A model generated the notes under the pieces. That model was not told where the DNA came from. It did no database searches and was given only the letters and a program-made list of their open reading frames with translations. Position numbers and translations under genes: made by a program. A stretch of 62,836 nucleotides of DNA, counting the filler, from Chrysochromulina tobinii (lineage: Eukaryota), in NCBI GenBank assembly GCA_001275005.1. It is 6 parts of 6 records of this genome, joined end to end, with 100 filler letters (N's around TTAATTAATTAA, not from the genome) between each part and the next. Parts side by side here need not be neighbours in the genome. Positions count along the whole stretch, not along the records: positions 60,111 to 62,836 come from JWZX01000551.1; 5 more parts are not named here. One strand, given 5' to 3'. Positions 1 to 62,836 of the stretch are shown here, one piece after another. The stretch's first letter is position 1, and every line of letters starts with the position of its first letter.

Positions 1-816
1 GGCGCGCGCGCGACCCTCCTGAGCAGTGGCTGCTTCGCGCGTCGTGCCTTGCCGGTCACTCCCCTCCTTTTCTGTATTTGCGTGCTCCCGAACCAACGTG
101 AAGGTGACGTCGGGTGTTGATCACGGCATGGAACCAGATCTGGGTCTCCATACTCCGCGTCACGCGAATAAATGGTTGCCTCGTTTACCGGTCGGCTCCC
201 CCCGGTGAGCGGCAATGGCACAGACGCACGTGAAGATCTCCTAGAACTGTATAGAAGCGCCCCCGTTACGGCGCCCGTCGCCGAGGAGGTGCCGCCCCGG
301 ATTAGAGGTCTGCCTATGAGTATGACCCGTGTCTTTGAAGACCCTTTGAAGACGGAGGCAAGATGGGGGCGGAGGCCAGGCCAGAGGCAGGCTAGAGGCA
401 GGCGGGTGGCGGGTTCGGCGGTGAGAGCGTTGAGTGGCTGCCATAAATTCGAGCCATAAATCCGTCAACAAATCCTGTATCCTGGGACATCTTTACTGGG
501 ACTTCGGCAACTAAGTGACTTCGCACTTCCAGACCGGCCGCTCCGACCTCCGTGAGGTCCGTGTGCGTCGGCGGAACGAAACGCGACGCGACACCGGCGT
601 CGTGCGACCGTCCCTCGAACGAATACCAACGACGAACGAGCTCAACGAGCCTCGAGAAACGCGACAGTGTCCACGCCATGCGGTGGTGCACTCACACATA
701 CATGCTCCATCTGACCATCTCGCTCATCCAACTCGATACATGTCATGTACGAAAATCCACAAACACACCCGCTCACCGCACGGCATGGGGCAACGACACG
801 CAGACCGTACAGACCG

Positions 817-3299: not shown

Positions 3300-4475
3300 A
3301 TGAACATACCAACAGTGTGTGCGACGCCATTTGACGTTGTGGTCATCGGAGCGGGCATCTCCGGCCTCGTGGCTGCCAGCGCTTTATTACCACGCGTTCC
3401 TCGCGTGCTGGTGCTGGAGGTGCGCAACCGCGTTGGTGGCCGACTGTACAGCACACAAGATGGCATGGACCTGGGTGCCTCTTGGTGGTGGTCTCACGAT
3501 ACGTCTGCAGCGAAGCTGGCGCAGAAACTTGGCGTGGCATCTGTGCCACAGCACGTTGGCGGAAACGCCTGGCTCCATCGCGGCCAGCAGGCGCAGCGTG
3601 TGGGAGAAGTCGGAGACCAGATTGTTCCCTCTGGGCCTGGTTCCAAGCGTTTTGTGGGCGGGTACGCAGAGCTGCCCAGACGGCTCGCCGATTCGTTACC
3701 AGATGGTACGGTGCAGCTTGGGGTGCGAGTCGTCTCGCTAGAGCAGCAGGACGGTGGCGGCAGCACGCCTCAGGCCATCATCCGCGTCGGGATAGAGGGA
3801 CGCGAGGCCATCATGGCTCGCCGTGTGATCCTTGCCATCCCGCCGCGCCTCGCGAGCCGCATATCTTACTCGCCAGCGCTGCCCGCGGCTACACAGCGCC
3901 GCCTCGAGTCGACGGCGGCTTGGTGCGGCGACTGGTCCAAGGTGGTCGCCACGTTCAAGACGCCCTTTTGGCGCCAACTGGGTGACTCGGGTGTTGCCTC
4001 CACACCAAACGGTCTTGTCGAGGTTTGGTGGGAAGCAAGTGGTGGTGAGGCGACGAGCGAGGCCACGGCGTCGCTAGCGGGGCTCGCATTCGGCCAAGCA
4101 GGCGCGGCACGGCTCGGTCCTTTTGACTCGGGGCAGGCTGCAACCGCCGATGGCGCTGCTGCTCTCCGCTCAAAGGTGATCTCAGCTCTGGGGGCACTTT
4201 ATGGCGAGGAGCTCGTGCGTGAGCAGCTCCTGACTGTCGCTGTGAAGGTGTGGATGGTTGACCCCGATACTTACGCCCCATCACCTGACGGCATCGAGCC
4301 GCCCGGCGACCCGCGCTCCACGTATGGTCATCCGAACCTTCGAACGCCCACGACGTGGGGCGTGCACTTTGCTGGCACAGAGAGCGAGGCTCATTCTGGG
4401 CATGTGGCGGGCGCTATCTTGGCAGGCGAGCGGGCTGCCAGGGAGGTCGTCAGTGCTCTTGAGGCGCAGAGGTAG
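3300..4475 (+). CDS. Flavin-containing amine oxidase family protein
   Basis: DVVVIGAGISGL dinucleotide-binding motif, LEVRNRVGGR, DLGASW, C-terminal HFAGTE...GHVAGAILAGERAA. ATG at 3300. Confidence 0.9.
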   Translation: MNIPTVCATPFDVVVIGAGISGLVAASALLPRVPRVLVLEVRNRVGGRLYSTQDGMDLGASWWWSHDTSAAKLAQKLGVASVPQHVGGNAWLHRGQQAQRVGEVGDQIVPSGPGSKRFVGGYAELPRRLADSLPDGTVQLGVRVVSLEQQDGGGSTPQAIIRVGIEGREAIMARRVILAIPPRLASRISYSPALPAATQRRLESTAAWCGDWSKVVATFKTPFWRQLGDSGVASTPNGLVEVWWEASGGEATSEATASLAGLAFGQAGAARLGPFDSGQAATADGAAALRSKVISALGALYGEELVREQLLTVAVKVWMVDPDTYAPSPDGIEPPGDPRSTYGHPNLRTPTTWGVHFAGTESEAHSGHVAGAILAGERAAREVVSALEAQR

Positions 4476-8235: not shown

Positions 8236-8559
8236 GGTGTGTGTATTCTGAGCGGGCAATAACAGTGCCGTAGCACCGGCTGTCGCGTCTGTCGTGTTAA
8301 CGTTCACAAGTCGAAAATCGGGCTCCACCGCAAATTCCTATCGTTTCGCGCACGCGCTAATTTCACGCTGGCGGTTAATCTCTGAGGCTTCCCTCCCGGT
8401 ATTCAGACGAAACCGGGGGTGGGGAAGAATTTGTTTTTAGATTTGCTATTTTTTAGCTTATTTAGCGACAGCTACCCCCGGTGTTTTTGAACCGTGTTGA
8501 CGGTCCAATTCCTATAGTTCAGCACATTCACGGGAGCCGCGTCTCTTGTGAGGGACAAG

Positions 8560-48428: not shown

Positions 48429-48991
48429 GGCGATGGGCAATTCCGCGTCAGACCGTCAGTCCACACCGAGAGAAGGGTTTGCGTCGAGTGTGCCGCCGTT
48501 TTTGAGCGCTATCGTGGGCACTATCTGTATTGGGCGTCACGTGTGATCCGGGGATCGCGTTCCTTTATCTTCCGTGAAAACGAAAGCACACCGAAATCAC
48601 AAAGTCAGTCCATGTTTGTGACAAGTCAAGTCAGGTCAAAGTCCTGTGTTTCTGTGTGTTCAGACTGTGAACGTCAACACGACAGACGCGACAACCGGTG
48701 CTACAGCAATGTTACTGCCCGACTGTGTGATAAAGTCAAGACTCCTTCAGAAGTCAAGTCCATTGACAATATAAATCAACTGGGCTGTTACTTAAGGTTT
48801 CTCTATCTCGTGTGGCTCACAAGTCTTACAATTGAAGATGGCAATGGATCACTCACCCATCTTGGATGCCCCGTTGTGAAAAGTTCGCGTCAATTCGAAA
48901 CAAAGTTTCGTCGCCGAGAAAGATTCTTTCGCGCCGGCGCTGGCGGAGCAGAATGCAGGGGGAGGAGAATTGAGTACACACCAACAGCGTG

Positions 48992-51111: not shown

Positions 51112-52603
51112 ACGACCACAGTCCTTTGTGTCAAGAGACAGTGAGAGTGACCCCCTATAAAGCTATTTGCTATAAACTAAGTCCTAGCTAACAGCTAACT
51201 CGACTTCGCCTGTTCACACATCGTCATCGACACTCCTCCCTCCTCCGCACCTGCGCACTCGTACGGCATAAGGGCATATGCACTGCCATCATATCACGCT
51301 GATGTCAGATGTGTCACATCTTAGGCTAACCGCTGCCGTCTCGTGTTCCCCCACACACCCAGAGCACACGCGGAGGTCGTGGGCTCGTGGCTATCCGGAC
51401 ACGCCCCTGCCGAGTCGAAACTAAGTCGAAACGTTCATTTTTGACGCCGCCCTAACGCCGCCCAGTCCCGCCCAGGAGGCTCCCCCAAATTGTTCCCCAC
51501 AATTCACGATTTTCACGTCTGCACCGCATTCTTGCAGGACCAGGTTGCACGTTCTGCAGGCAGCCCCCCAAATAAATTGCTGTCACTTCTCGTCATCGAG
51601 TCTGGGCGTCCGTGGAGCGGCGCCAGTCGGCTCGTCGATGACGACAGAAAATTGGCCTGGAGCAAAAAATATCTTGACCAAAAGGGTAGTGGTCTACTTT
51701 TTTTTTTAGAAGCTGGGCCCATCCCTACTTCCCTACATGTACACCTGTTTGGGAATCGAATGCCTTGATGTTCGCCCTTGAGCGTGAATTGGGAGGTTGG
51801 TTACAGACACGGGTTGGTACTATAGGGGTCTTGACTCGTGTGAACTGCGTACATGTAGCCCCTACCTACCTAGGCCCGCCCGTAGGAGCGAGATCGCTCA
51901 GTCGCGTTGCGTTCCCTTTTTCCCTTGCGTTGAGCCGTTGACCCGTCAGTAAGCGAGCTCGAGCGTTCTCTTACGGTGCTCGTGTGTGTCGCGTCATGCA
52001 TGCGGACCCCGGAACCAGTCCAGTGTGTCCGGTACGTTTTGTTACGGGTAAGGGGGTAGAACCGGGTAACCTGGTCAGACCTACTATTGTTCTGTACAGT
52101 ACCTCTTGTATGTTTGTTGAAACCGGCATTTTGTTTATTTTTGAGGGTTTCGCCATGGAAGTCGTGTACACCCAGCCGCAGCCGCCCACAACTTTGGCGT
52201 CTTCGGTGGCGCGCCTGCCTCGATGGCCAGGTGGACTCGGGGCTGCGCCCCCCGTCGCACTCGCCGCCGATCCATGGTGAAGGAGCTGTGTGCCTCCGAG
52301 GCGGCGTGGCCGTCCACCGGCTCGTCCACCCCCGAATCCACCTTTCCGGGGACGCTGGCCACGCTCCTGCTGCCGGCGATTGACGCGTGGCTCGTGCCCG
52401 CGCTGGAGGCTTCCCCTCTTGTCGGGGCGCTGACAACCCCTCTTCCGTTCACGATGGCAACGCTTGCTCTCGTCTGCCTGGTCCAGGACTTCGCGGCACG
52501 TCCCACCTGGGCGCTCGCCTCAATCTCTGGGTCGCCGCCCAAGGGCGCTGGTGCTGTGAGTGCCACCTTTGCGTCAAGCCGACCCTCTGCTCGGCGCGGC
52601 TCC

Positions 52604-55600
52604 ATGTGCCGCTTCGGATCTGCGCCTCGACTTGACCGCGTTGTCTTTCTCCTCGTGGCGTTCGGCTTCGTGGCCATTACCAACGCGCAGCTCTGCACGG
52701 AGACGTGCTTCGGGTACGCCTCAGACGGTTGCTGCGACGATGGCGGACCCGGAGCTGAGTACGCAGATTGTGTGCAAGGCACCGACTGCACCGATTGCGG
52801 CCCTCGAGAGCATCTTCCGTCGCAAACGCCACTGTATTTGCTACCGCCGCCGCCGCCGCTGTCGCCGTCGCCGCCGCCGCCGCCGCCGGCGCCGCCAGCA
52901 CAGCCTCCCAGACCAGCGCAGCCTGGCTGGCACGTCGAACGCCAAGGCCGCAGGCGTTACCCCCCCCCACGGGACTATGCGCAAGAGCTCCAGCCGGGCG
53001 GCCAACCGACGGCGTTCGCACCACCAAACTGCTCGGCACCAGGGCGGGTGGGCTGCGTTGCGATGCCCAGGCCAGCCCGTGCCAAGCCTGCAGCAGGCGT
53101 TCGAGCTGCGCTCTTGCCACCTACGTGCACCTTGTCCTCCGAGCCGGGATGCCTGCGCCTCCCCAAGCCTTTGGTGAGGATGGGGGACGAGCTGCTAGAC
53201 AGCGGCGAAGATATACTTCGATTCGTGGACAGAGGCGATAGAATAATGGCGCTGCTGACCGGCGGTTGGGCGAGCACATACTCAATCGTGGCGGCCGACA
53301 TGGACGGCGACGGCGACCTCGACGTGCTGCTTGGGAACTATGACAGTGCCAGCCGAGTGCTCCTCAACGCGGGCGACGGCACCTTCCCGACGAGCATCGA
53401 GCTGCCCGGCGGCATTGCGTACACGAGGTCGATCGCGGCGGCGGACGTGGATGGAGACGGCGACCTCGACGTGCTGCTGGGCATCGAAGGCAGTGCCAGC
53501 CGAGTGCTCCTCAACGCGGGCGACGGCACCTTCCCGACGAGCATCGAGCTGCCCGGCGGCATTGCGTACACGAGGTCGATCGCGGCGGCGGACGTAGACG
53601 GCGACGGCGACCTCGACGTGCTGCTTGGGAACTATGACAGTGCCAGCCGAGTGCTGCTCAACGCGGGCGACGGCACCTTCCCGACGAGCATCGAGCTGCC
53701 CGGCGGCAGCGCGGGCACGAGGTCGATCGCGGCGGCGGACGTGGACGGCGACGGCGACCTCGACGTGCTGCTTGGGGTTTCCGGCAGTCCAAGTCGTCTG
53801 CTTCCCTTAGTCAGATGCTCTCAGACTGACACTGCACGCAGCCACTTTGGCCACGGATGCGTCCACTGCCCCGCTCCGATCTCACGCCGAGACGACCATT
53901 TCGATATCTGCTACGAGTGCGAAGAGCACACGGAGCTCAACGGCCGCGGCGAATGCTCCTCCTGCAAGCCGGGTTACGATCGCTCCTTGGGAGCCGCCGA
54001 GTGCACTGCCTGCCCGCGCGGCAAGCGCCAAGGAGAGGCTGGCACACTCTGTGTCGACTGCTCCCCGGGCACGTACGCTCCGAAAGACGGCCTCTTTGGC
54101 CCCAAATGCTTGGATTGCGAGCAGGGCAGCTTCTGCCCGCCAGGCGCCGCGGCACCAGTGCCGTGCCACGAGGGCAGCTTCTCGAGCGCGACCGACCTCG
54201 CGCGCGATGAGCAGTGCCCACACGCGCTGCCTACACCACCTGCTGCTCCGGTTGCAGCTGCGCATGGACAACCACAAATTGTAGCGGCCCTCACCTCCAG
54301 TGTTGCACTTCTAATTGTGCTTCTCGTGGTGCTTGCTTGCTTTCGGCATCGGAGCAAGCGCAGACGGGCGGCCACCCAACTGCTTGACAGCAATTCCGTC
54401 TCCATGCACGCGTTGTCCTCCATGCACGCGTTGTCCGGTCGGGTGCCCAGGCTCCAGGAGGAGCGCCCCACGAATTCGCTCCAAAGCTCCTTGGTGGGCT
54501 CCGACGAGCCGACGCACCTCGAGGTGGTGGACTTCTCGACGCTTACGATGGGCAGGCCGATCGGCAAAGGTGGCTTCGCGACCGTCTGGCTTGCGCGGTG
54601 GCAGGGCAACGACCTCGCCGTTAAGGTGCTCAACACGGAGCATGAGAACATCGATGCGTCGCCTGCGCAGGATGAAGCCATGCTCCGGGAGGTGGCCATC
54701 CTGCGTCGCCTGCGCCACCCGTGCATATGCGCCCTTTTCGGCCACATGCGGGTTGACGAGCGACCCGCGCTCGTCCTCGAGTACATGGCTGGCGGCTCTC
54801 TCGCCGCATACCTCTTCGATCCTAGGCAAGCTACTTTCAACGTGGACCCCCCCCGGGAAGCCGTCCAGGCCAGCGCATCGAGCCTTTCGAGCGGGGTGCG
54901 CATCTTCCGTAGCCTCTTCCGTCTCCACAACGCCGCCGCAGCGCCGGTGATGGGGCCGCCGCCACGCCCGCACCTGGCCGGCATGCTCCCGTGCGAGAAG
55001 AAGATTCGCTTCGGCGTTCAGCTGGCGAGCGGGCTGTGCTTCCTCCACTCGCACGGCATCCTGCACCACGACGTCAAGACGGAGAATGCACTGCTCGACG
55101 CGAACCGAACGGTATGCAAGCTCGCCGACTTCGGGTTGGCGAGCCTCAGCCTCAAGTACGCGGATCGTAAAAGCAGGAATTCGGTGAGCGCGGGGGGCAC
55201 ACTGCGATATATGGCACCCGAGAGATTGGAGGAGTCGGAACGTCACGCGCGCAAGAGCCGCGATCGTGGCGACGGTCGTGGCAGCAGCAGCGGCAGCAGC
55301 GGCAGCCTGGGCCGCACGCTCGTCAGCTTTGAGGATCGTGCGGATGTCTATGCCTTTGCACTCTTGCTTTGGGAGCTCACGCATGAGCGCCGCGCCTTTG
55401 AGGGGATGACGGGGGTAGCTGCCGCCTTCGGCGCCAGCCAGGGGCTTCGGCCACAGTTCTTGGAGCCTCATCTCTATGGGATGATCCCAGCGCTCACGTG
55501 CGAGTGTTGGGCGCAGCGTCCAGAGGACCGCCCGAGCATGAGCACGGTGCTCGCGAGGCTCGACGCATGCATGCAAGCCCTCTCTGCGACACAAGGTGTG

Positions 55601-55789
55601 GGCGACTCGTCGGTGCAGAGCTCGCCCCCAAGCCGCCTATCCAGCTGCAGCGACGAGTCGTCCACCGCTGCTGCAGTACTTTTCGACCATGAGCAATTTT
55701 CGACGAAGGTGGGAGGACATGGCGAGGACTTCGAACTGTGGGTGGAACCCGAAAGAGAGACAGAGACAGGGAGACAGAGAGTGCAATGA
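52604..55789 (+). CDS. Receptor-like TKL kinase with FG-GAP/VCBS repeats and Cys-rich ectodomain
   Basis: Signal peptide; CCDDGGPG; four 49-aa (147-bp) units AADVDGDGDLDVLLG; CxxC repeats (CSPGTY, CEQGSFCP); TM helix; GKGGFA, AVK, HHDVKTEN, DFG, YMAPE. Confidence 0.92.
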   Translation: MCRFGSAPRLDRVVFLLVAFGFVAITNAQLCTETCFGYASDGCCDDGGPGAEYADCVQGTDCTDCGPREHLPSQTPLYLLPPPPPLSPSPPPPPPAPPAQPPRPAQPGWHVERQGRRRYPPPRDYAQELQPGGQPTAFAPPNCSAPGRVGCVAMPRPARAKPAAGVRAALLPPTCTLSSEPGCLRLPKPLVRMGDELLDSGEDILRFVDRGDRIMALLTGGWASTYSIVAADMDGDGDLDVLLGNYDSASRVLLNAGDGTFPTSIELPGGIAYTRSIAAADVDGDGDLDVLLGIEGSASRVLLNAGDGTFPTSIELPGGIAYTRSIAAADVDGDGDLDVLLGNYDSASRVLLNAGDGTFPTSIELPGGSAGTRSIAAADVDGDGDLDVLLGVSGSPSRLLPLVRCSQTDTARSHFGHGCVHCPAPISRRDDHFDICYECEEHTELNGRGECSSCKPGYDRSLGAAECTACPRGKRQGEAGTLCVDCSPGTYAPKDGLFGPKCLDCEQGSFCPPGAAAPVPCHEGSFSSATDLARDEQCPHALPTPPAAPVAAAHGQPQIVAALTSSVALLIVLLVVLACFRHRSKRRRAATQLLDSNSVSMHALSSMHALSGRVPRLQEERPTNSLQSSLVGSDEPTHLEVVDFSTLTMGRPIGKGGFATVWLARWQGNDLAVKVLNTEHENIDASPAQDEAMLREVAILRRLRHPCICALFGHMRVDERPALVLEYMAGGSLAAYLFDPRQATFNVDPPREAVQASASSLSSGVRIFRSLFRLHNAAAAPVMGPPPRPHLAGMLPCEKKIRFGVQLASGLCFLHSHGILHHDVKTENALLDANRTVCKLADFGLASLSLKYADRKSRNSVSAGGTLRYMAPERLEESERHARKSRDRGDGRGSSSGSSGSLGRTLVSFEDRADVYAFALLLWELTHERRAFEGMTGVAAAFGASQGLRPQFLEPHLYGMIPALTCECWAQRPEDRPSMSTVLARLDACMQALSATQGVGDSSVQSSPPSRLSSCSDESSTAAAVLFDHEQFSTKVGGHGEDFELWVEPERETETGRQRVQ

Positions 55790-56821: not shown

Positions 56822-58660
56822 CTAAGTTCTCCGAGGCTGAGACTTAGATGATGGCCATGGCGTTGGCCGCTGGTCGTGATTGCAGCTGTGATGCGAGCGT
56901 CCCATACCATCAACCTCGAGAGCGTTCTCGTCGTCGTTCTCTTCCTCGTCATCATGTTCCTCCTCCTCGACCTCGTCATAGACGACGTGCCGTTGCTGGC
57001 CGCCCGGCTGCACCCTCCGAGTGCTAGCTCGAGAGGTGCGGTCGCTAAAGCCACGAGTGCGCGCACCACGACCGAGGTCGCGCCCAAAAGGACGCGAGGG
57101 AGCGCCCCGGGTCCAGCTCAGCCCATGACACAGCCCTAGGCCCACGCAACAGCAACTACACATCATGACGACGCTCGCCAAGACGGCCGGGTGGATGGCT
57201 GGGCCGAACGTCATGAACGCCGCGAACCCCCCAGGGTTACCTAAAGGGCTGTCCGCTCCTGGCAGTACACCCGTGGTCATCGGGATCGCTCGAGGGACGT
57301 TACGAGGGGCGGGGTTTGTAGATGGGTCGGCGACACCGGGAGCCCACCCGACGGCACCAGCAAGCACGCCGCCATCAATGCTGGCCACGACCTCGTCGTA
57401 GGCTAAGAATGGCTGCCCCGCGATGACCATCGGCAGCTCTGTGAACGCATCTTTAGGAATCCTAGGAGCCGCCGCAGGCGATGAGAAGAGTTGCGCTGCC
57501 ATCTTGGGAGGTTGCGGAGATTGGCTCGGAGATCGGATCGGAGGCGGAGGCCGGAGTGGCGGCGATGGCAAAGGCGAGAGGTGGACTGGTGGGAGGCGCT
57601 GCGGGGCGCCGCACACGGGGCATCCATCGCACGCACCTCCCGCCTTGCCACAGAACGTCACCTTGCACCAGCTCTCACATCGCAGCTGCACGCCCGGCGC
57701 ATACCCCTCGCAATACGCGCATGCGCGGCAGGCGTTGGCTGTGCAATCGGTCGGCCGGTTACACCAAGACGAGCAGCGGGGGCAAAAGGAGCACGCCGAG
57801 CACTTGCAGAACGCGCCTGTCGCATACACACGAGTTCGCCCACACAGTATTCATCAGTGCGGGTGTCATTCAGTGCTTCTTCACAGTATCGTCACAAGTC
57901 GCTTGTAAGTCGCTTGGGCTCCTCGCGTGCATTCTCGCGTGCACACATGAGAGTACGACGTGAGCAGTGCTGGTGGATCTATCTGCTCTCAAGGGTCTGC
58001 TCTGTTGGGAGCGCGCACAGTTGTGTACGTCCTTGGCGGAGCCGGTGCACCACGACTCGCACGTGGAGTGTGCTAGGTCGAAGCGATCCTTGGGCGTGCA
58101 CTGCTGGCGCGTCGTCGGAGCGCAGCTCGCGCACCCCTTGCATTTGCAGAACTGACAGCCGTCGCCACTGTTGCACCATGGTTGGCACGTCTCGAACCTC
58201 GGATCGTCGATCGCATCGGGATGAGGCGCGCAGGATCGTTCCGGATGGTGCCCGCGACAGAATTCGCATCCTTTGCATTTGCACGTGCCGCAATGCTCAG
58301 CTTCTGAGCACCAAGATTGGCAGCCTTCATAGTCCACATCGTCAATCGCCGTTGGCGTGCAGGGCAGGCAGAGGCTGCAATCCCGACACTTGCAGTGAGA
58401 ACCTACAGTGCCACAGAACTCAGAAGGTCAGCAGAAGACAAAGAGCGTGCGCGCAGCGTGCGAGACGCACAATGAGCCGGTTCTGAGCACCAGTCTTCGC
58501 AGAGCGCTACTGACGTGTCATCCGGTTCATTTTGTATGCAAACGCCGGCGCTAAGACCTCGGTGCGAACTGAAAACCTGTGCTCCTGAAGAAGGCAGCTG
58601 GTGGCTTGCGGCGGCTGCGACAGCAAAAGACAGGATCCTCCTCGAAAGCACGGCCCACAT
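56822..58660 (-). CDS. Type I membrane protein with repeated CxxWC...CxxCxCxxCxxC modules; exons 58660-58471, 58402-58019, 57816-56822
   Basis: Two GT-AG introns (58403-58470, 57817-58018) each split a Cys codon and link three ORFs; signal peptide, Pro-rich stalk, TM helix, acidic tail. Confidence 0.75.
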
Positions 58661-60010: not shown

Positions 60011-60110
60011 NNNNNNNNNNNNNNNNNNNNNNNNNNNNNNNNNNNNNNNNNNNNTTAATTAATTAANNNNNNNNNNNNNNNNNNNNNNNNNNNNNNNNNN
60101 NNNNNNNNNN
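60011..60110. other. Artificial contig spacer
   Basis: N44-TTAATTAATTAA-N44. Confidence 0.99.
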
Positions 60111-62836
60111 GTACACGAGCACCTGCCGAACGCGCTCGCCGCACGACCGAAGCCCTCGCACGCTGAGGCCAAGCGCGTCGAGCAGGCCGTGCACCTGATC
60201 CGCCATCTGCTGACGCCCGGAGCTCCCACCCAGTCGAGCCACCGTCTGCTCACCCATCGGCGTCGAAAGCAGCTTACGTAGCATGTGTTGCACGAGATCC
60301 TCCACCTGCCCGCGCTCCACGACGAGGGACTGCTCGGCGGCGTTACTGCGTCCCTCCGCGCCGTGCAGGAGCGCTGCGTACGTGGTGCTCACGTGCGCAA
60401 TGTACGCCGCGACGGTGCTCGGATCCAGCCGTGCCGAGCGCATCAGCTCGGCGAGCGACGCGCCAAACACGAGCTCCATGATCACGTGCCCATGCCTGAA
60501 CATGTGGAAGTGCGCCTCGTTGCGAGGCCACGTTGCGACGCCGCGGGCGGTGCGCAGCTCGTTGACACGATCGACGACGAGGTGCAGCCCGTCATTGTAC
60601 GCCTCGTACGGAAGGCGCTGCTCCGAAAAGTCGTCCGCGGACGCCACCTGGCACCGTCGGCGTGCTTCCTGGCCCATGAGCCACGAGAAGCGACGCCCGT
60701 CATTGAGCGCCCGAAACACGGGCACCCCCTCTCCAGTGCCTGCTCGCACATGCGTCAGCGCTCCACTGAGCTCGAGGTACATGAGCAGCACGCACGCGTT
60801 GCAGAGCGGGATGTCGCCCGTGCTCGTGTCAAACTGCCAGCCCATGGTTGAGGACACGCTCCATGCCAGCCCGTCGGAGCGCCCCGAGAACCCCTTGGAC
60901 GAGCACGGGCAGCTGCGCGAGTGCTGCACCCACCGCTTAAAGCCCTCCCCCGCCCCGTCCGCCTTCGAGTTTGGGAGCGTCACGAGGATGTCGTTCGTGC
61001 GCGCGTGCTTGCCAAAGGCGAGGTTCTCGAGGTTGAGCGCGTGCACGTCGCTCGCCCGCAGCGCCACCATGTAGGCGAGCGTGAAGATGGACGCGTGCAG
61101 CAAGTCGCACGCCACGCCGAACACGAGCACGCTCAGGAGCTCGTGCATCACCTCCTCCGTCGCCGCCATGGCCCGAAACACGCGCTGGCGCACGCTCAGC
61201 TGGCGGGCGAGGGCAAACGCGTGCACCACCGGCCGATGCTGCAACGCGAGCACGGCGGTGTAGTCGGGCACCTTGCCGCGCCCGGGCATGCGCACCGACG
61301 GCCAGCCGCAGCAGGCAAGCAGGTACCAACTGAGCGCCTGCTTCATGGCGATGATGCTCGACTCCGCAAACGGCCGCACGCGGTTCATCGCATCGAACGC
61401 GTTGGGGCCGACGTTGCGCACGCCCACAGCATCGTCGGGAGCCGCCTGCTGCAGCCGGCTCCGAAGGCTGCCCCGCGAGCGAGGAGGTGCACATGCCCAA
61501 AAGACTGTCACGCGCCTCACGACGGCATCTCCAATGTGCAGGCGCGCCTCGAGCCCTTCCAAAGTCTCTTCACTCCCCGTGTGCTCGAAGACGCCGCCCT
61601 CGGCGTGCATCGCACGAACCACGCGAGCAAAGGTGCCGTTCAAGATCGCCATGCCCTGCACGAGGCGGGCATCCGTCGGGTTGAGCGACACCATAACAGC
61701 CCGTCGACGTTCCGCATCCGTGGCTCCGAGATCTTCCACGGCCATGACGGCGAGCAGAGCCTCCACCTCCGTTCGCGTGACGGCCTCGATGACGATGGCA
61801 GCCACGCCTCCGCGAGGGAACGCCAAGCGAGCCTCCAAGCCCTCCCCCGAAGATCGGCACATGTCCAAGAAGGCGAGCCCAATGTACGCTCGATGGCGGG
61901 AAAGCCATTCCCGCTGCACCGCGTCCAAGACGCCGGCGTAGCCCGCAGTTGCTGCCTGCAGGTAGTGATCGAACCGGCGCACGGACGCAAGCTTGTCCAC
62001 CGCCGCCTGCCCCAGATGCCCGGTGGCTTCGCGCTGCGCCTCGAGCCGTGCCTTCAACGCGGTGCGTACGACCTCCTCGTCCAGGTTCGCCTGGGATGCC
62101 GCTGGGATGAGCGAGACCATCGGAAGGGCGACGGTGGCAAGAGAGGTGCGAGTAAAGAGAGCGACAGGTTGAGCACACAAGCAACCCGTTCGCACGACCA
62201 ACGACGACTCGCCACGCTGTCGATGAGCCCCTTTGCCGCTCTGCCTCCACGGTGGCTCTTGAGGCTCCGATATCGTAGGCAGAGCAAGCACACCGATCGG
62301 TATGGCGTCGACCAGTGGCCCTGCATCGACCACCATTGGCACCGTAAGCATGCCCTCCGACGCGAGGACTACCTGACGTGCCGCAGACTGCACGAGCGGT
62401 GTCTGATCTGGGATGCAAGCAATGACGAGGCCGCCCTGCGGTGGCGCTGCCACCACCGGCAGCGCTTCTGTGAGGCGTTCAGCATCGAGGCCGCCGCCAG
62501 CACGTGAGAGCACGGCCCAGCCGGTGGCATATGCATGGACCTCAAATACCAACGACCGTCGCTGTGTCCCGCTGACAGTCGCTGTGACAGAGAGCACAGA
62601 GCTCGAGAGTTCCTCGAGCGGCGCCTCGAGCCATCGAAGGCCCTGCCGCCACAGCAGCACGGCTCGGCCCTTGCTCCACTTGCACCCAAGCGCCTCTTCA
62701 ACGGATGCAACCTGAGCTCCCTCTATAGCGGCAACCTCGAGCCGGCTCCGAAGCCGCCAGTCATACAGCAGCACAGCCTGCGCTGCTGCGGGAAGCGACA
62801 CGAGCACGCGCTCAAGGCCACCCCGCGTGTCCTCCG
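60111..62836 (-). CDS. Large tyrosine recombinase (about 900 aa visible, open at both ends), probably from a mobile element
   Basis: Core-binding helix AESSIIAMKQALSWY; FTLAYMVALRASDV (R), VTLPNSKAD (K), HFHMFRHG (HxxR), STVAAYI (Y). Confidence 0.85.

What the first reader, a model, noticed from the sequence alone, without database searches (positions are those of the whole stretch)
60111..62836. Very long, uninterrupted tyrosine recombinase in a eukaryotic assembly
Seen: about 900 codons with no stop. The YR catalytic domain (R, K, HMFR, Y at about 61100-60390) follows more than 400 aa with no motif I recognise. A Cys/His-rich insert (HSRSCPC...CNAC) follows the catalytic K, and the usual GH/GRW position reads ARL. 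Known: eukaryotic YRs occur in DIRS/Ngaro/VIPER, Cryptons, fungal Starship captains and Polinton-like viruses. Inference: the size and the absence of RT in this frame suggest an unclassified YR DNA element or viral integrase.
Basis: partly seen in the sequence, partly recalled or inferred. Interest (0 to 1): 0.7.

Follow-up and report, generated by a model that had tools for sequence, protein, structure and literature searches.

The report
Algal transposon with double tyrosine recombinase
This open frame is the back half of a roughly 2,000-amino-acid gene of haptophyte algae that carries two related DNA-recombinase domains in a row, likely the engine of a jumping gene that would use one tethered pair of enzymes to cut and rejoin two different DNA half-sites.

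Summary
In detail: 908 stop-free codons fill a separate 2,726-bp contig. The encoded domain has the Cre fold (pLDDT 81, Z 18.6) and is under purifying selection (dN/dS 0.13). The frame is open at both ends. A 97%-identical relative continues it upstream in frame into a second complete tyrosine recombinase domain (YR1), and 77-86% relatives are single ORFs of 1,950-2,070 aa: YR1, linker, YR2. YR1 and YR2 are homologous (profile probability 97.6%), with R, K, H/YxxR and Y in register. The tandem recurs in six groups, down to about 30% identity. The 'motif-less' 400 aa are the linker plus YR2's core-binding domain, split by a large insert. Named near-identical records are from Chrysochromulina. 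Marine relatives carry spliceosomal introns. No RT, capsid, viral or prokaryotic match was found, and copies have different host flanks. Best reading: an RT-less, Crypton-like DNA transposon with a natural single-chain two-domain recombinase. The left end, an empty site, a YR1 structure and activity are not shown. Ten paper searches and three look-ups of this scan's notes found no eukaryotic double-YR element.

The parts
60111..62834 (-). Open frame of 908 codons, cut at both ends by the contig; equals about residues 1039-1952 of the 2,068-aa double-YR ORF P0038
   Evidence: P0144 carries a whole YR1 and runs in frame into codons 1-318 at 307 of 318 identity
62085..62834 (-). Second half of the YR1-YR2 linker (codons 1-250): variable; holds a degenerate copy of a W..G-W-L-E...GW-[VL]-L motif seen in distant relatives (Tudor-like by recall, not tested)
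   Evidence: 11-25% identity to distant relatives; dN/dS 0.42
61863..62012 (-). First helices of the YR2 core-binding (DNA-binding) domain, codons about 275-324; borders approximate
   Evidence: model residues from 57 align with Cre, Tn1549 Int, lambda Int and ALOG core-binding domains
61365..61862 (-). Helical insert of about 165 aa inside the core-binding domain (FPRGG motif); absent from YR1, weakly echoed in the single-YR sister family; borders approximate
   Evidence: ALOG 8p5q aligns 110 residues over model range 56-336; conservation; YR1 aligns to YR2 only from about codon 490
61197..61364 (-). Last helices of the YR2 core-binding domain, codons about 491-546
   Evidence: aligns with the matching YR1 helices
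60342..61181 (-). YR2 catalytic domain, codons about 552-831: R593, K624, H777, R780, Y811; the His/Trp position reads R802-L803; invariant H814 three residues after the Tyr
   Evidence: Cre Z 18.6; XerA Z 15.3, rmsd 3.2 over 181 residues; Foldseek E 2.6e-5; invariance in 18 of 18 domains for R, K, second R, Y and H814
60792..60923 (-). Cys/His insert after the catalytic Lys: H638-x3-C642 ... C678-x2-C681; predicted zinc site
   Evidence: three Cys invariant in 18 of 18 YR1, YR2 and single-YR domains; His in 15 of 18; metal binding inferred
60111..60341 (-). Start of the C-terminal helical tail; about 115 further codons and about 430 nt of 3' non-coding DNA lie beyond the contig end in 97-99.8% copies
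60011..60110 (.). Artificial contig linker; genes to its left are not neighbours of the element

Best explanation
The frame is the back half of a single gene of about 2,050 codons that holds two related tyrosine recombinase domains in tandem, and it is likely the transposase of a low-copy, RT-less DNA transposon of haptophyte algae. Shown: the tandem ORF, the Cre fold of YR2, the homology of YR1 to YR2 with the catalytic residues in register, purifying selection, and several copies with different 3' flanks. Inferred: YR recombination uses four catalytic domains on two DNA sites (established for Cre and Xer; recalled), so two of these polypeptides would supply all four. YR1 and YR2 would each bind a different half of an asymmetric site, as a tethered heterodimer. 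The element would recombine its two ends into a circle and recombine the circle into a target with a short matching core, as proposed for Cryptons. YR2's large insert and the N-terminal or linker modules (AP2-like in one lineage) would add DNA or chromatin contacts. Defective copies would be moved in trans.
For: Tandem ORF: 9 of 149 proteins examined span all eight catalytic marker positions of both domains. The fusion is seen in the Chrysochromulina group and in five further groups from separate 50% clusters: P0049, P0062/L007, P0063, P0110/P0114, P0109, the last three only as YR1's C-terminal part. P0144 ties a complete YR1 to this window's codons 1-318, and a 2,486-nt contig of an independent run reads YR1, linker and YR2 start without the break found in L001. 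YR1 vs YR2: probability 97.6%, E 2.9e-12, 282 columns; reversed control E 0.67. The Atlas scores YR1 0.97 against phage-integrase clusters. YR1 keeps R, K, YxxR and Y in 4 of 4 full domains; YxxR is a known variant in Starship YRs (PMC11162782, passages). Mobility: L001, L002/3 and L004 share the 3' end and then differ, with different host genes beyond. Subfamilies at 97, 86 and 77% exist. Copies show inversion, deletions and scrambled fragments. DNA route: GT-AG introns, one at the same position in L006, L007 and L008; 0 of 42 frames and proteins hit RT, RNase H or capsid families.
Against: The left end, terminal direct repeats, an empty site and a circle junction were not seen. The right boundary rests on two flanks, and L001 is interrupted there by a high-copy repeat. 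The YR1 model failed (pLDDT 38.6), so YR1's fold rests on sequence methods, and only three divergent lineages gave a full YR1. P0004, P0005 and P0053 have YR2 with no YR1 in the called ORF, and a sister family of 684-716 aa has one YR only, so the tandem is not needed by all relatives. Summed contig depth over the element is only about 0.7-6 times the flank in run X1, and the tool warns this is no copy number. Both domains lack the canonical His/Trp. No activity or heterodimer was tested.
Confidence: 0.68

Rival explanations
1. Same transposon, but with division of labour: the two domains act as separate homotetramers (for example one circularises and the other integrates), or YR1 mainly binds and bends DNA while YR2 cuts.
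For: YR1 has Y for the first His and lacks YR2's insert. Single-YR sisters of YR2 exist. Bacterial multi-YR elements include non-catalytic YR-fold partners such as Tfp and GinC (PMC10214605, passages).
Against: YR1 keeps R, K, R and Y across about 30% identity, which non-catalytic derivatives usually lose (DUF3504 genes, PMC3212892, passages). Staying fused in six groups suits joint action on one site.
Confidence: 0.12
2. A domesticated host recombinase or chromatin gene with a few paralogues, no longer mobile.
For: Purifying selection, shared intron positions in marine relatives, low apparent copy number, and pieces present in one RNA sample.
Against: Different flanks for 93-99% identical copies. 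Broken and scrambled copies occur. The Chrysochromulina copies have no intron at the intron positions of the marine relatives.
Confidence: 0.09
3. The YR ORF of a DIRS-, PAT- or Ngaro-like retroelement whose gag/RT lies beyond the unseen left end.
For: The nearest Atlas cluster to YR2 carries ALOG plus phage integrase, the type of YR found in a class of DIRS-like elements (PMC3537659, passages). The fold is closest to Cre. The left end is unseen.
Against: No RT, RNase H or methyltransferase in any long frame over 7.2 kb of L001 or 7.9 kb of L007. The ORF alone (6.2 kb) equals the largest of 28 DIRS1 elements listed (3,974-6,283 bp; PMC3266345, passages). Introns persist. No ITR or split repeats were found in the part seen.
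Confidence: 0.05
4. The integrase of an endogenous virus or Polinton-like virus, or a phage or bacterial contaminant.
For: Chrysochromulina hosts Polinton-like viruses (search listing). Structural neighbours in BFVD are phage integrases at 9-15% identity.
Against: No relative in five IMG/VR scans or two GTDB scans (these are pattern-seeded and miss distant relatives). Eukaryotic host genes lie directly downstream, relatives have spliceosomal introns, and GC is host-like.
Confidence: 0.04
5. The tandem is an assembly or gene-calling artefact, or a chance fusion of two adjacent elements.
For: Most records are metagenome contigs, and L003 is visibly scrambled.
Against: Same order and frame in six groups down to about 30% identity from different sources, and in independent runs.
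Confidence: 0.02

Closest known systems
Crypton DNA transposons in the broad sense (Kojima and Jurka 2011, PMC3212892, passages; Krysinska et al. 2026, PMC13465315, abstract and Background)
   Same: Eukaryotic YR with an intact R-K-H-R-Y set, no RT in the DNA seen, introns in some members, no long terminal repeats seen at the 3' end, low copy.
   Different: Two YR domains in one ORF of about 2,050 aa. No GCR1_C or DUF3504 hit. Split core-binding domain. Cys/His insert in the catalytic domain. Terminal 4-6-bp repeats untested.
Starship captains (DUF3435; PMC11162782, passages)
   Same: YR mobiliser with CB plus CAT domains; YxxR variant as in Starship clades 1 and 3.
   Different: No DUF3435 hit. 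The YR ORF lies near the 3' end seen, with no cargo downstream. Haptophyte, not fungal. Doubled YR.
ALOG-bearing DIRS1-type elements and DIRS/PAT/Ngaro/VIPER YRs (PMC3537659, PMC3266345, passages)
   Same: Cre/XerC-like YR; a core-binding domain interrupted by an insert; top Atlas neighbour.
   Different: The insert is about 165 aa and helical, not the ALOG zinc ribbon; the Cys motif sits in the catalytic domain; no gag, RT, RNase H or MT found.
Bacterial multi-YR elements: Tn554 (TnpA/TnpB), RIT, GInt, SE (PMC10214605 and PMC8138268, passages); XerC/XerD (recalled)
   Same: More than one YR is used for one element's movement.
   Different: Those are separate genes in bacteria; here the two YRs are fused, eukaryotic and closer to each other's family than to any library model. 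No sequence link was found.
Engineered linked Cre heterodimer RecF8 (PMC8776779, passages)
   Same: Two YR monomers in one chain, made to act on asymmetric sites: the working model proposed here.
   Different: Artificial, with a short linker; here natural, with about 400 aa between the domains, and untested.

Membership tests
Tyrosine recombinase superfamily (YR2, in the window) | CB plus CAT fold | tested here: met
   Model pLDDT 81; Cre Z 18.6 (rmsd 11.1, 283 aligned, two domains); XerA Z 15.3 (rmsd 3.2, 181); Foldseek E 2.6e-5
Tyrosine recombinase superfamily (YR2, in the window) | Catalytic R, K, HxxR, Y | tested here: met
   R593, K624, H777, R780, Y811 conserved in 11 of 11 YR2 domains aligned
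Tyrosine recombinase superfamily (both domains) | His/Trp before the catalytic Tyr | tested here: not met
   Position reads R-[LMIV] in 17 of 18 domains, H-L in one; an invariant His follows the Tyr by three residues. Position assigned by spacing, not by superposition.
Tyrosine recombinase superfamily (YR1, upstream in relatives) | Homology and catalytic residues | tested here: met
   hhalign to YR2 97.6%, reversed control 0.1%; Atlas 0.97 to PF00589 clusters; R, K, YxxR, Y in 4 of 4
Tyrosine recombinase superfamily (YR1, upstream in relatives) | CAT fold by structure prediction | tested here: inconclusive
   Model pLDDT 38.6; fold searches uninformative
Crypton (broad sense) | YR without RT | tested here: met
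   No RT hit in 42 frames and proteins or; holds for the part seen, left end unseen
Crypton (broad sense) | 4-6-bp direct repeats at both ends; empty site with one copy | not testable with these tools
CryptonF / CryptonA / Starship | GCR1_C, DUF3504 or DUF3435 domain | tested here: not met
   No such Pfam hit at E up to 0.5-5 in the window ORF, full-length relatives or 25 alignment members; 4 of 25 hit Phage_integrase weakly. Pfam is insensitive to this family.
Crypton, Starship, DIRS | Phylogenetic placement among reference YRs | not tested
   No reference eukaryotic YR set was at hand; the tree holds only this family
DIRS / PAT / Ngaro / VIPER | gag and RT-RNase H ORFs, often overlapping the YR ORF | tested here: not met
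   over L001 1-7300, L007 and L008; DNA left of L001:1 not seen
DIRS / PAT / Ngaro / VIPER | ITR plus ICR, or split direct repeats | tested here: inconclusive
   None within the part seen; left end missing
Polinton-like virus / endogenous virus | Capsid, packaging ATPase, polymerase genes; viral relatives | tested here: not met
   Host genes downstream; no IMG/VR relative; upstream side unseen
Mobile element | Near-identical copies at different loci | tested here: met
   Three 3' contexts among four loci (L002 and L003 are one context); the L002 junction recurs in run X7 and an L004-type continuation in run X14

The most novel reading that the evidence does not exclude
A new superfamily of eukaryotic DNA transposons driven by a natural single-chain heterodimeric recombinase: two catalytically active, differently specific YR domains in one polypeptide that recombine asymmetric sites, with an altered active site (Arg-aliphatic for His/Trp, a post-Tyr His) and a zinc module. 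It would be nature's version of engineered linked Cre heterodimers and a eukaryotic parallel of XerC/D and Tn554.
Probability: 0.45. Interest if true: 0.87.

Novelty: new variant of a known kind. Interest (0 to 1): 0.74.

Why it matters
The eukaryotic YR elements described in the papers seen carry one YR domain. A conserved two-YR polypeptide suggests another way to recombine non-symmetric ends and targets, and gives a clean test: mutate each Tyr. It offers a natural scaffold for asymmetric-site recombinases, which are otherwise engineered by fusing Cre variants. It also marks a haptophyte mobile family that Pfam, NCBIfam and PHROGs miss almost entirely.

Tried and rejected
1. Library searches: Pfam, NCBIfam, PHROGs and PDB sequence searches gave no useful hit for the window ORF or full-length relatives.
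2. Longer fusions: no relative of 2,838-5,000 aa (weak evidence).
3. YR1 structure: failed.
4. The first YR1-YR2 profile comparison was discarded as circular, because P0049 brought YR2 into both alignments; it was redone with cut domains. Plain blastp/phmmer of YR1 against YR2 from one protein was not significant.
5. The YR1 and YR2 tails, and their first core-binding helices, showed no detectable homology.
6. The idea that the Chrysochromulina N-terminus holds the AP2-like domain of P0062 got no support.
7. The inversion in L001-L003 as a recombinase-driven switch was rejected: no inverted repeats at its joints, and the uninverted joint is the one listed in four of four runs.
8. No terminal or internal repeats in the window contig beyond chance; no Rfam match at the 3' end.
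9. RNA: contigs of one metatranscriptome sample (two runs) cover parts of YR1, the linker, YR2 and the 3' region, undeleted and with no splice joint. Strand is unknown and DNA carry-over is not excluded, so this is not counted as proof of expression.
10. A YR1-YR2 complex prediction was not obtained.
11. No whole genome or parent record was available.
12. Ten paper searches showed no eukaryotic two-YR element. Repbase, subscription papers and supplements were not seen, so a catalogued family cannot be excluded.

Full report
1. Observation. The window is a string of contigs joined by N-linkers. The finding is the last contig, 60111-62836, and one minus-strand frame runs through it for 908 codons without a stop. 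A protein from this frame is recorded on a contig of exactly 2,726 nt, so both ends of the ORF are missing and the contig has no further context. Pfam, NCBIfam and PDB sequence searches miss the protein. An AlphaFold2 model of codons 219-845 built on 25 relatives has pLDDT 81. It matches Cre best (Foldseek E 2.6e-5; Z 18.6), followed by XerA, Tn1549 Int, XerH, integron and lambda integrases. Against a 96.7%-identical copy, dN/dS is 0.13 in the core-binding and catalytic parts and 0.42 in the first 250 codons.

2. Host. Near-identical proteins include a named Chrysochromulina tobinii model (97% identity). A named C. parva model matches P0144 at 179 of 180 residues, and P0144 matches this window at 307 of 318. 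Runs holding the DNA are mostly freshwater or aquatic metagenomes and mixed cultures. The window also carries pieces of repeats found next to metagenome copies. No relative was found in five viral or two prokaryote scans; these are pattern-seeded and see only close relatives.

3. The full gene. Longer cluster members extend the frame upstream to 1,954-2,068 aa (P0038, P0084, P0092, P0096, P0098). The extra part holds a second YR-like domain, YR1, with R (KARTHE), K (TKTSDG), C...CxxC, YxxR (YSARKGG), GRI and Y (YYRRH). Of 149 proteins mapped on P0038, 9 span all eight marker positions of both domains (this test is coverage, and residues were checked for a subset). The fusion is also in five groups from other 50% clusters: P0049 (both domains whole), P0062/L007 (YR2 cut by introns), and P0063, P0110/P0114 and P0109 (YR1's C-terminal part fused to YR2). 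Conservation peaks over both YR domains and drops in the linker. For this window's own subfamily, P0144 has a complete YR1 in frame with codons 1-318.

4. YR1 is a YR related to YR2. Profiles cut to the separate domains (6 and 23 non-redundant rows) align with probability 97.6%, E 2.9e-12, over 282 columns, with all catalytic positions in register; the reversed control gives E 0.67. The Atlas places YR1 at 0.97 among phage-integrase clusters and YR2 at 0.96 next to eukaryotic ALOG/integrase clusters. The YR1 structure prediction failed, which leaves its fold unconfirmed by modelling. In 18 catalytic domains (11 YR2, 4 YR1, 3 single-YR; partial sequences left out), R, K, three Cys, the second R, Y and a His three residues after the Tyr are invariant. 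The His/Trp slot reads R-[LMIV] in 17. YR1, YR2 and the single-YR family each form one supported side of the unrooted tree; without a root, the order of events is open.

5. The 'motif-less' region. Model residues 57 to about 336 align with core-binding domains (ALOG Z 7.2, 110 residues, rmsd 3.7; integrase N-domains Z about 5), and the long Cre alignment starts at residue 57. So YR2's DNA-binding domain is split by a conserved helical insert of about 165 aa; the borders are approximate. Codons 1-250 are linker. One lineage has an N-terminal segment matching the non-catalytic end of HNH-endonuclease PHROGs, AP2-like by recall, and one has a PDZ domain in the linker.

6. Exceptions. P0004, P0005 and P0053 begin inside the linker and have no YR1 in the called ORF. 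A family of 684-716 aa (P0073, P0151, P0083) has one YR only. Their DNA context was not seen.

7. Mobility. L001, L002/L003 and L004 share the gene's 3' end and about 380-430 nt beyond the stop, then differ. Beyond lie different host genes: methyltransferase, FKBP and WW/NHL in L001; GT47, fasciclin and Myb in L004. L002/3 and L004 agree through ...CTCTCGCAAGGGGCT, then match at 10 of 14 further bases (counted by eye), a possible target preference. L001 is interrupted 17 nt earlier by a high-copy repeat. L001-L003 are defective: an inversion of 2241-2970 and a frameshifting deletion at 3653. Contigs from four studies hold the uninverted joint, and one 2,486-nt contig reads through both places intact. 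Summed depth suggests a low-copy family (bins of 120-1,088 over the ORF against 171-175 in the flank in X1; one end bin 25.5), but the tool warns this is not a copy number. The left end was never seen. Several full-length ORFs lie on contigs of 7.4-7.6 kb, which hints at, but does not show, the element's size.

8. No retro or viral machinery in the part seen. None of 42 frames and proteins hit RT, RNase H or capsid families. Marine relatives have GT-AG introns: removing L007 5293-5362 raises the profile score from 17 to 117 bits, and removing L008 1844-1910 raises it from 98 to 180; L006, L007 and L008 share the intron right after the catalytic Lys. A third window tested in L007 gave no gain (best 117 against 125 unspliced) because it started downstream of the likely donor.

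9. Mechanism. Shown: architecture, fold of YR2, homology, conservation, several loci. Inferred: since YR synapses hold four catalytic domains (recalled), two polypeptides would suffice, each covering an asymmetric site with YR1 on one half and YR2 on the other. Excision to a circle and integration at a short core follow the Crypton model (PMC3212892, passages; PMC13465315, abstract and Background). An engineered fusion of two Cre variants works this way (PMC8776779, passages), and bacterial Tn554, RIT, GInt and SE elements use several separate YRs (PMC10214605 and PMC8138268, passages). Division of labour between the domains is the main mechanistic rival.

10. Novelty. It works like a Crypton in the broad sense, but membership is unproven (ends untested, no Crypton or Starship Pfam domain, no reference tree). 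Ten paper searches, term look-ups in two YR-element papers (PMC6681497, no passages returned; PMC4157794, passages), and passages of PMC11162782, PMC3537659 and PMC3266345 showed no eukaryotic element with two YR domains in one ORF. Repbase, subscription papers and supplements were not seen. This scan's notes held no look-alike.

11. Verdict. Real, eukaryotic, and more unusual than first read. The double-YR architecture is about 0.93 likely. An RT-less transposon is about 0.8 likely, of which the tethered-heterodimer mode is the preferred reading (0.68). Interest 0.74.

Noticed in passing
L001 7204-7990; pieces in L003 2182-2415 and 4215-4362; window 4-89: A high-copy repeat of about 730-790 bp with a 47-56-bp direct repeat near both ends (summed depth 30-300 times the flank). 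It abuts the YR element's 3' end in L001 and scrambled fragments of the element in L003; possibly a small non-autonomous element. No Rfam match.
   Followed up: partly
P0073, P0082/P0151, P0083: A single-YR family of 684-716 aa (32 members in one cluster, JGI, Tara, ENA and Logan), sister to YR2, with the same Cys motif, R-M at the His/Trp slot and YxxH; not found in viral or prokaryote scans; context unknown.
   Followed up: partly
L003 4362-5600: Scrambled, duplicated fragments of the element in both orientations just upstream of the main copy: real rearrangement or misassembly.
   Followed up: partly
P0062/L007 N-terminus and linker; P0155; P0005; L001 405-480: Accessory modules vary by lineage: AP2-like, Tudor-like and CxxC...CxxC zinc-ribbon-like segments (labels recalled) and a PDZ domain (Pfam hit) in P0005.
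   Followed up: no
window 52145-55789 (+): Intron-poor ORF of about 1,200 codons combining FG-GAP repeats, a Cys-rich ectodomain, a likely membrane span and a Tyr/Ser-Thr kinase domain; on another contig, unrelated to the finding.
   Followed up: no
window 56822-58430 (-): Gene with short Cys-rich CxxWC repeats and a likely membrane span; no Pfam hit.
   Followed up: no
window 8267-8308 and 48666-48707; L004 2173-2214: A shared 42-bp repeat, also about 75 nt beyond the element's 3' boundary in L004.
   Followed up: no
P0008 (KOO33083.1): The public C. tobinii gene model joins YR1's C-terminal part directly to YR2, skipping the linker; no such splice joint was seen in RNA contigs, so it is probably a gene-prediction choice.
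   Followed up: partly
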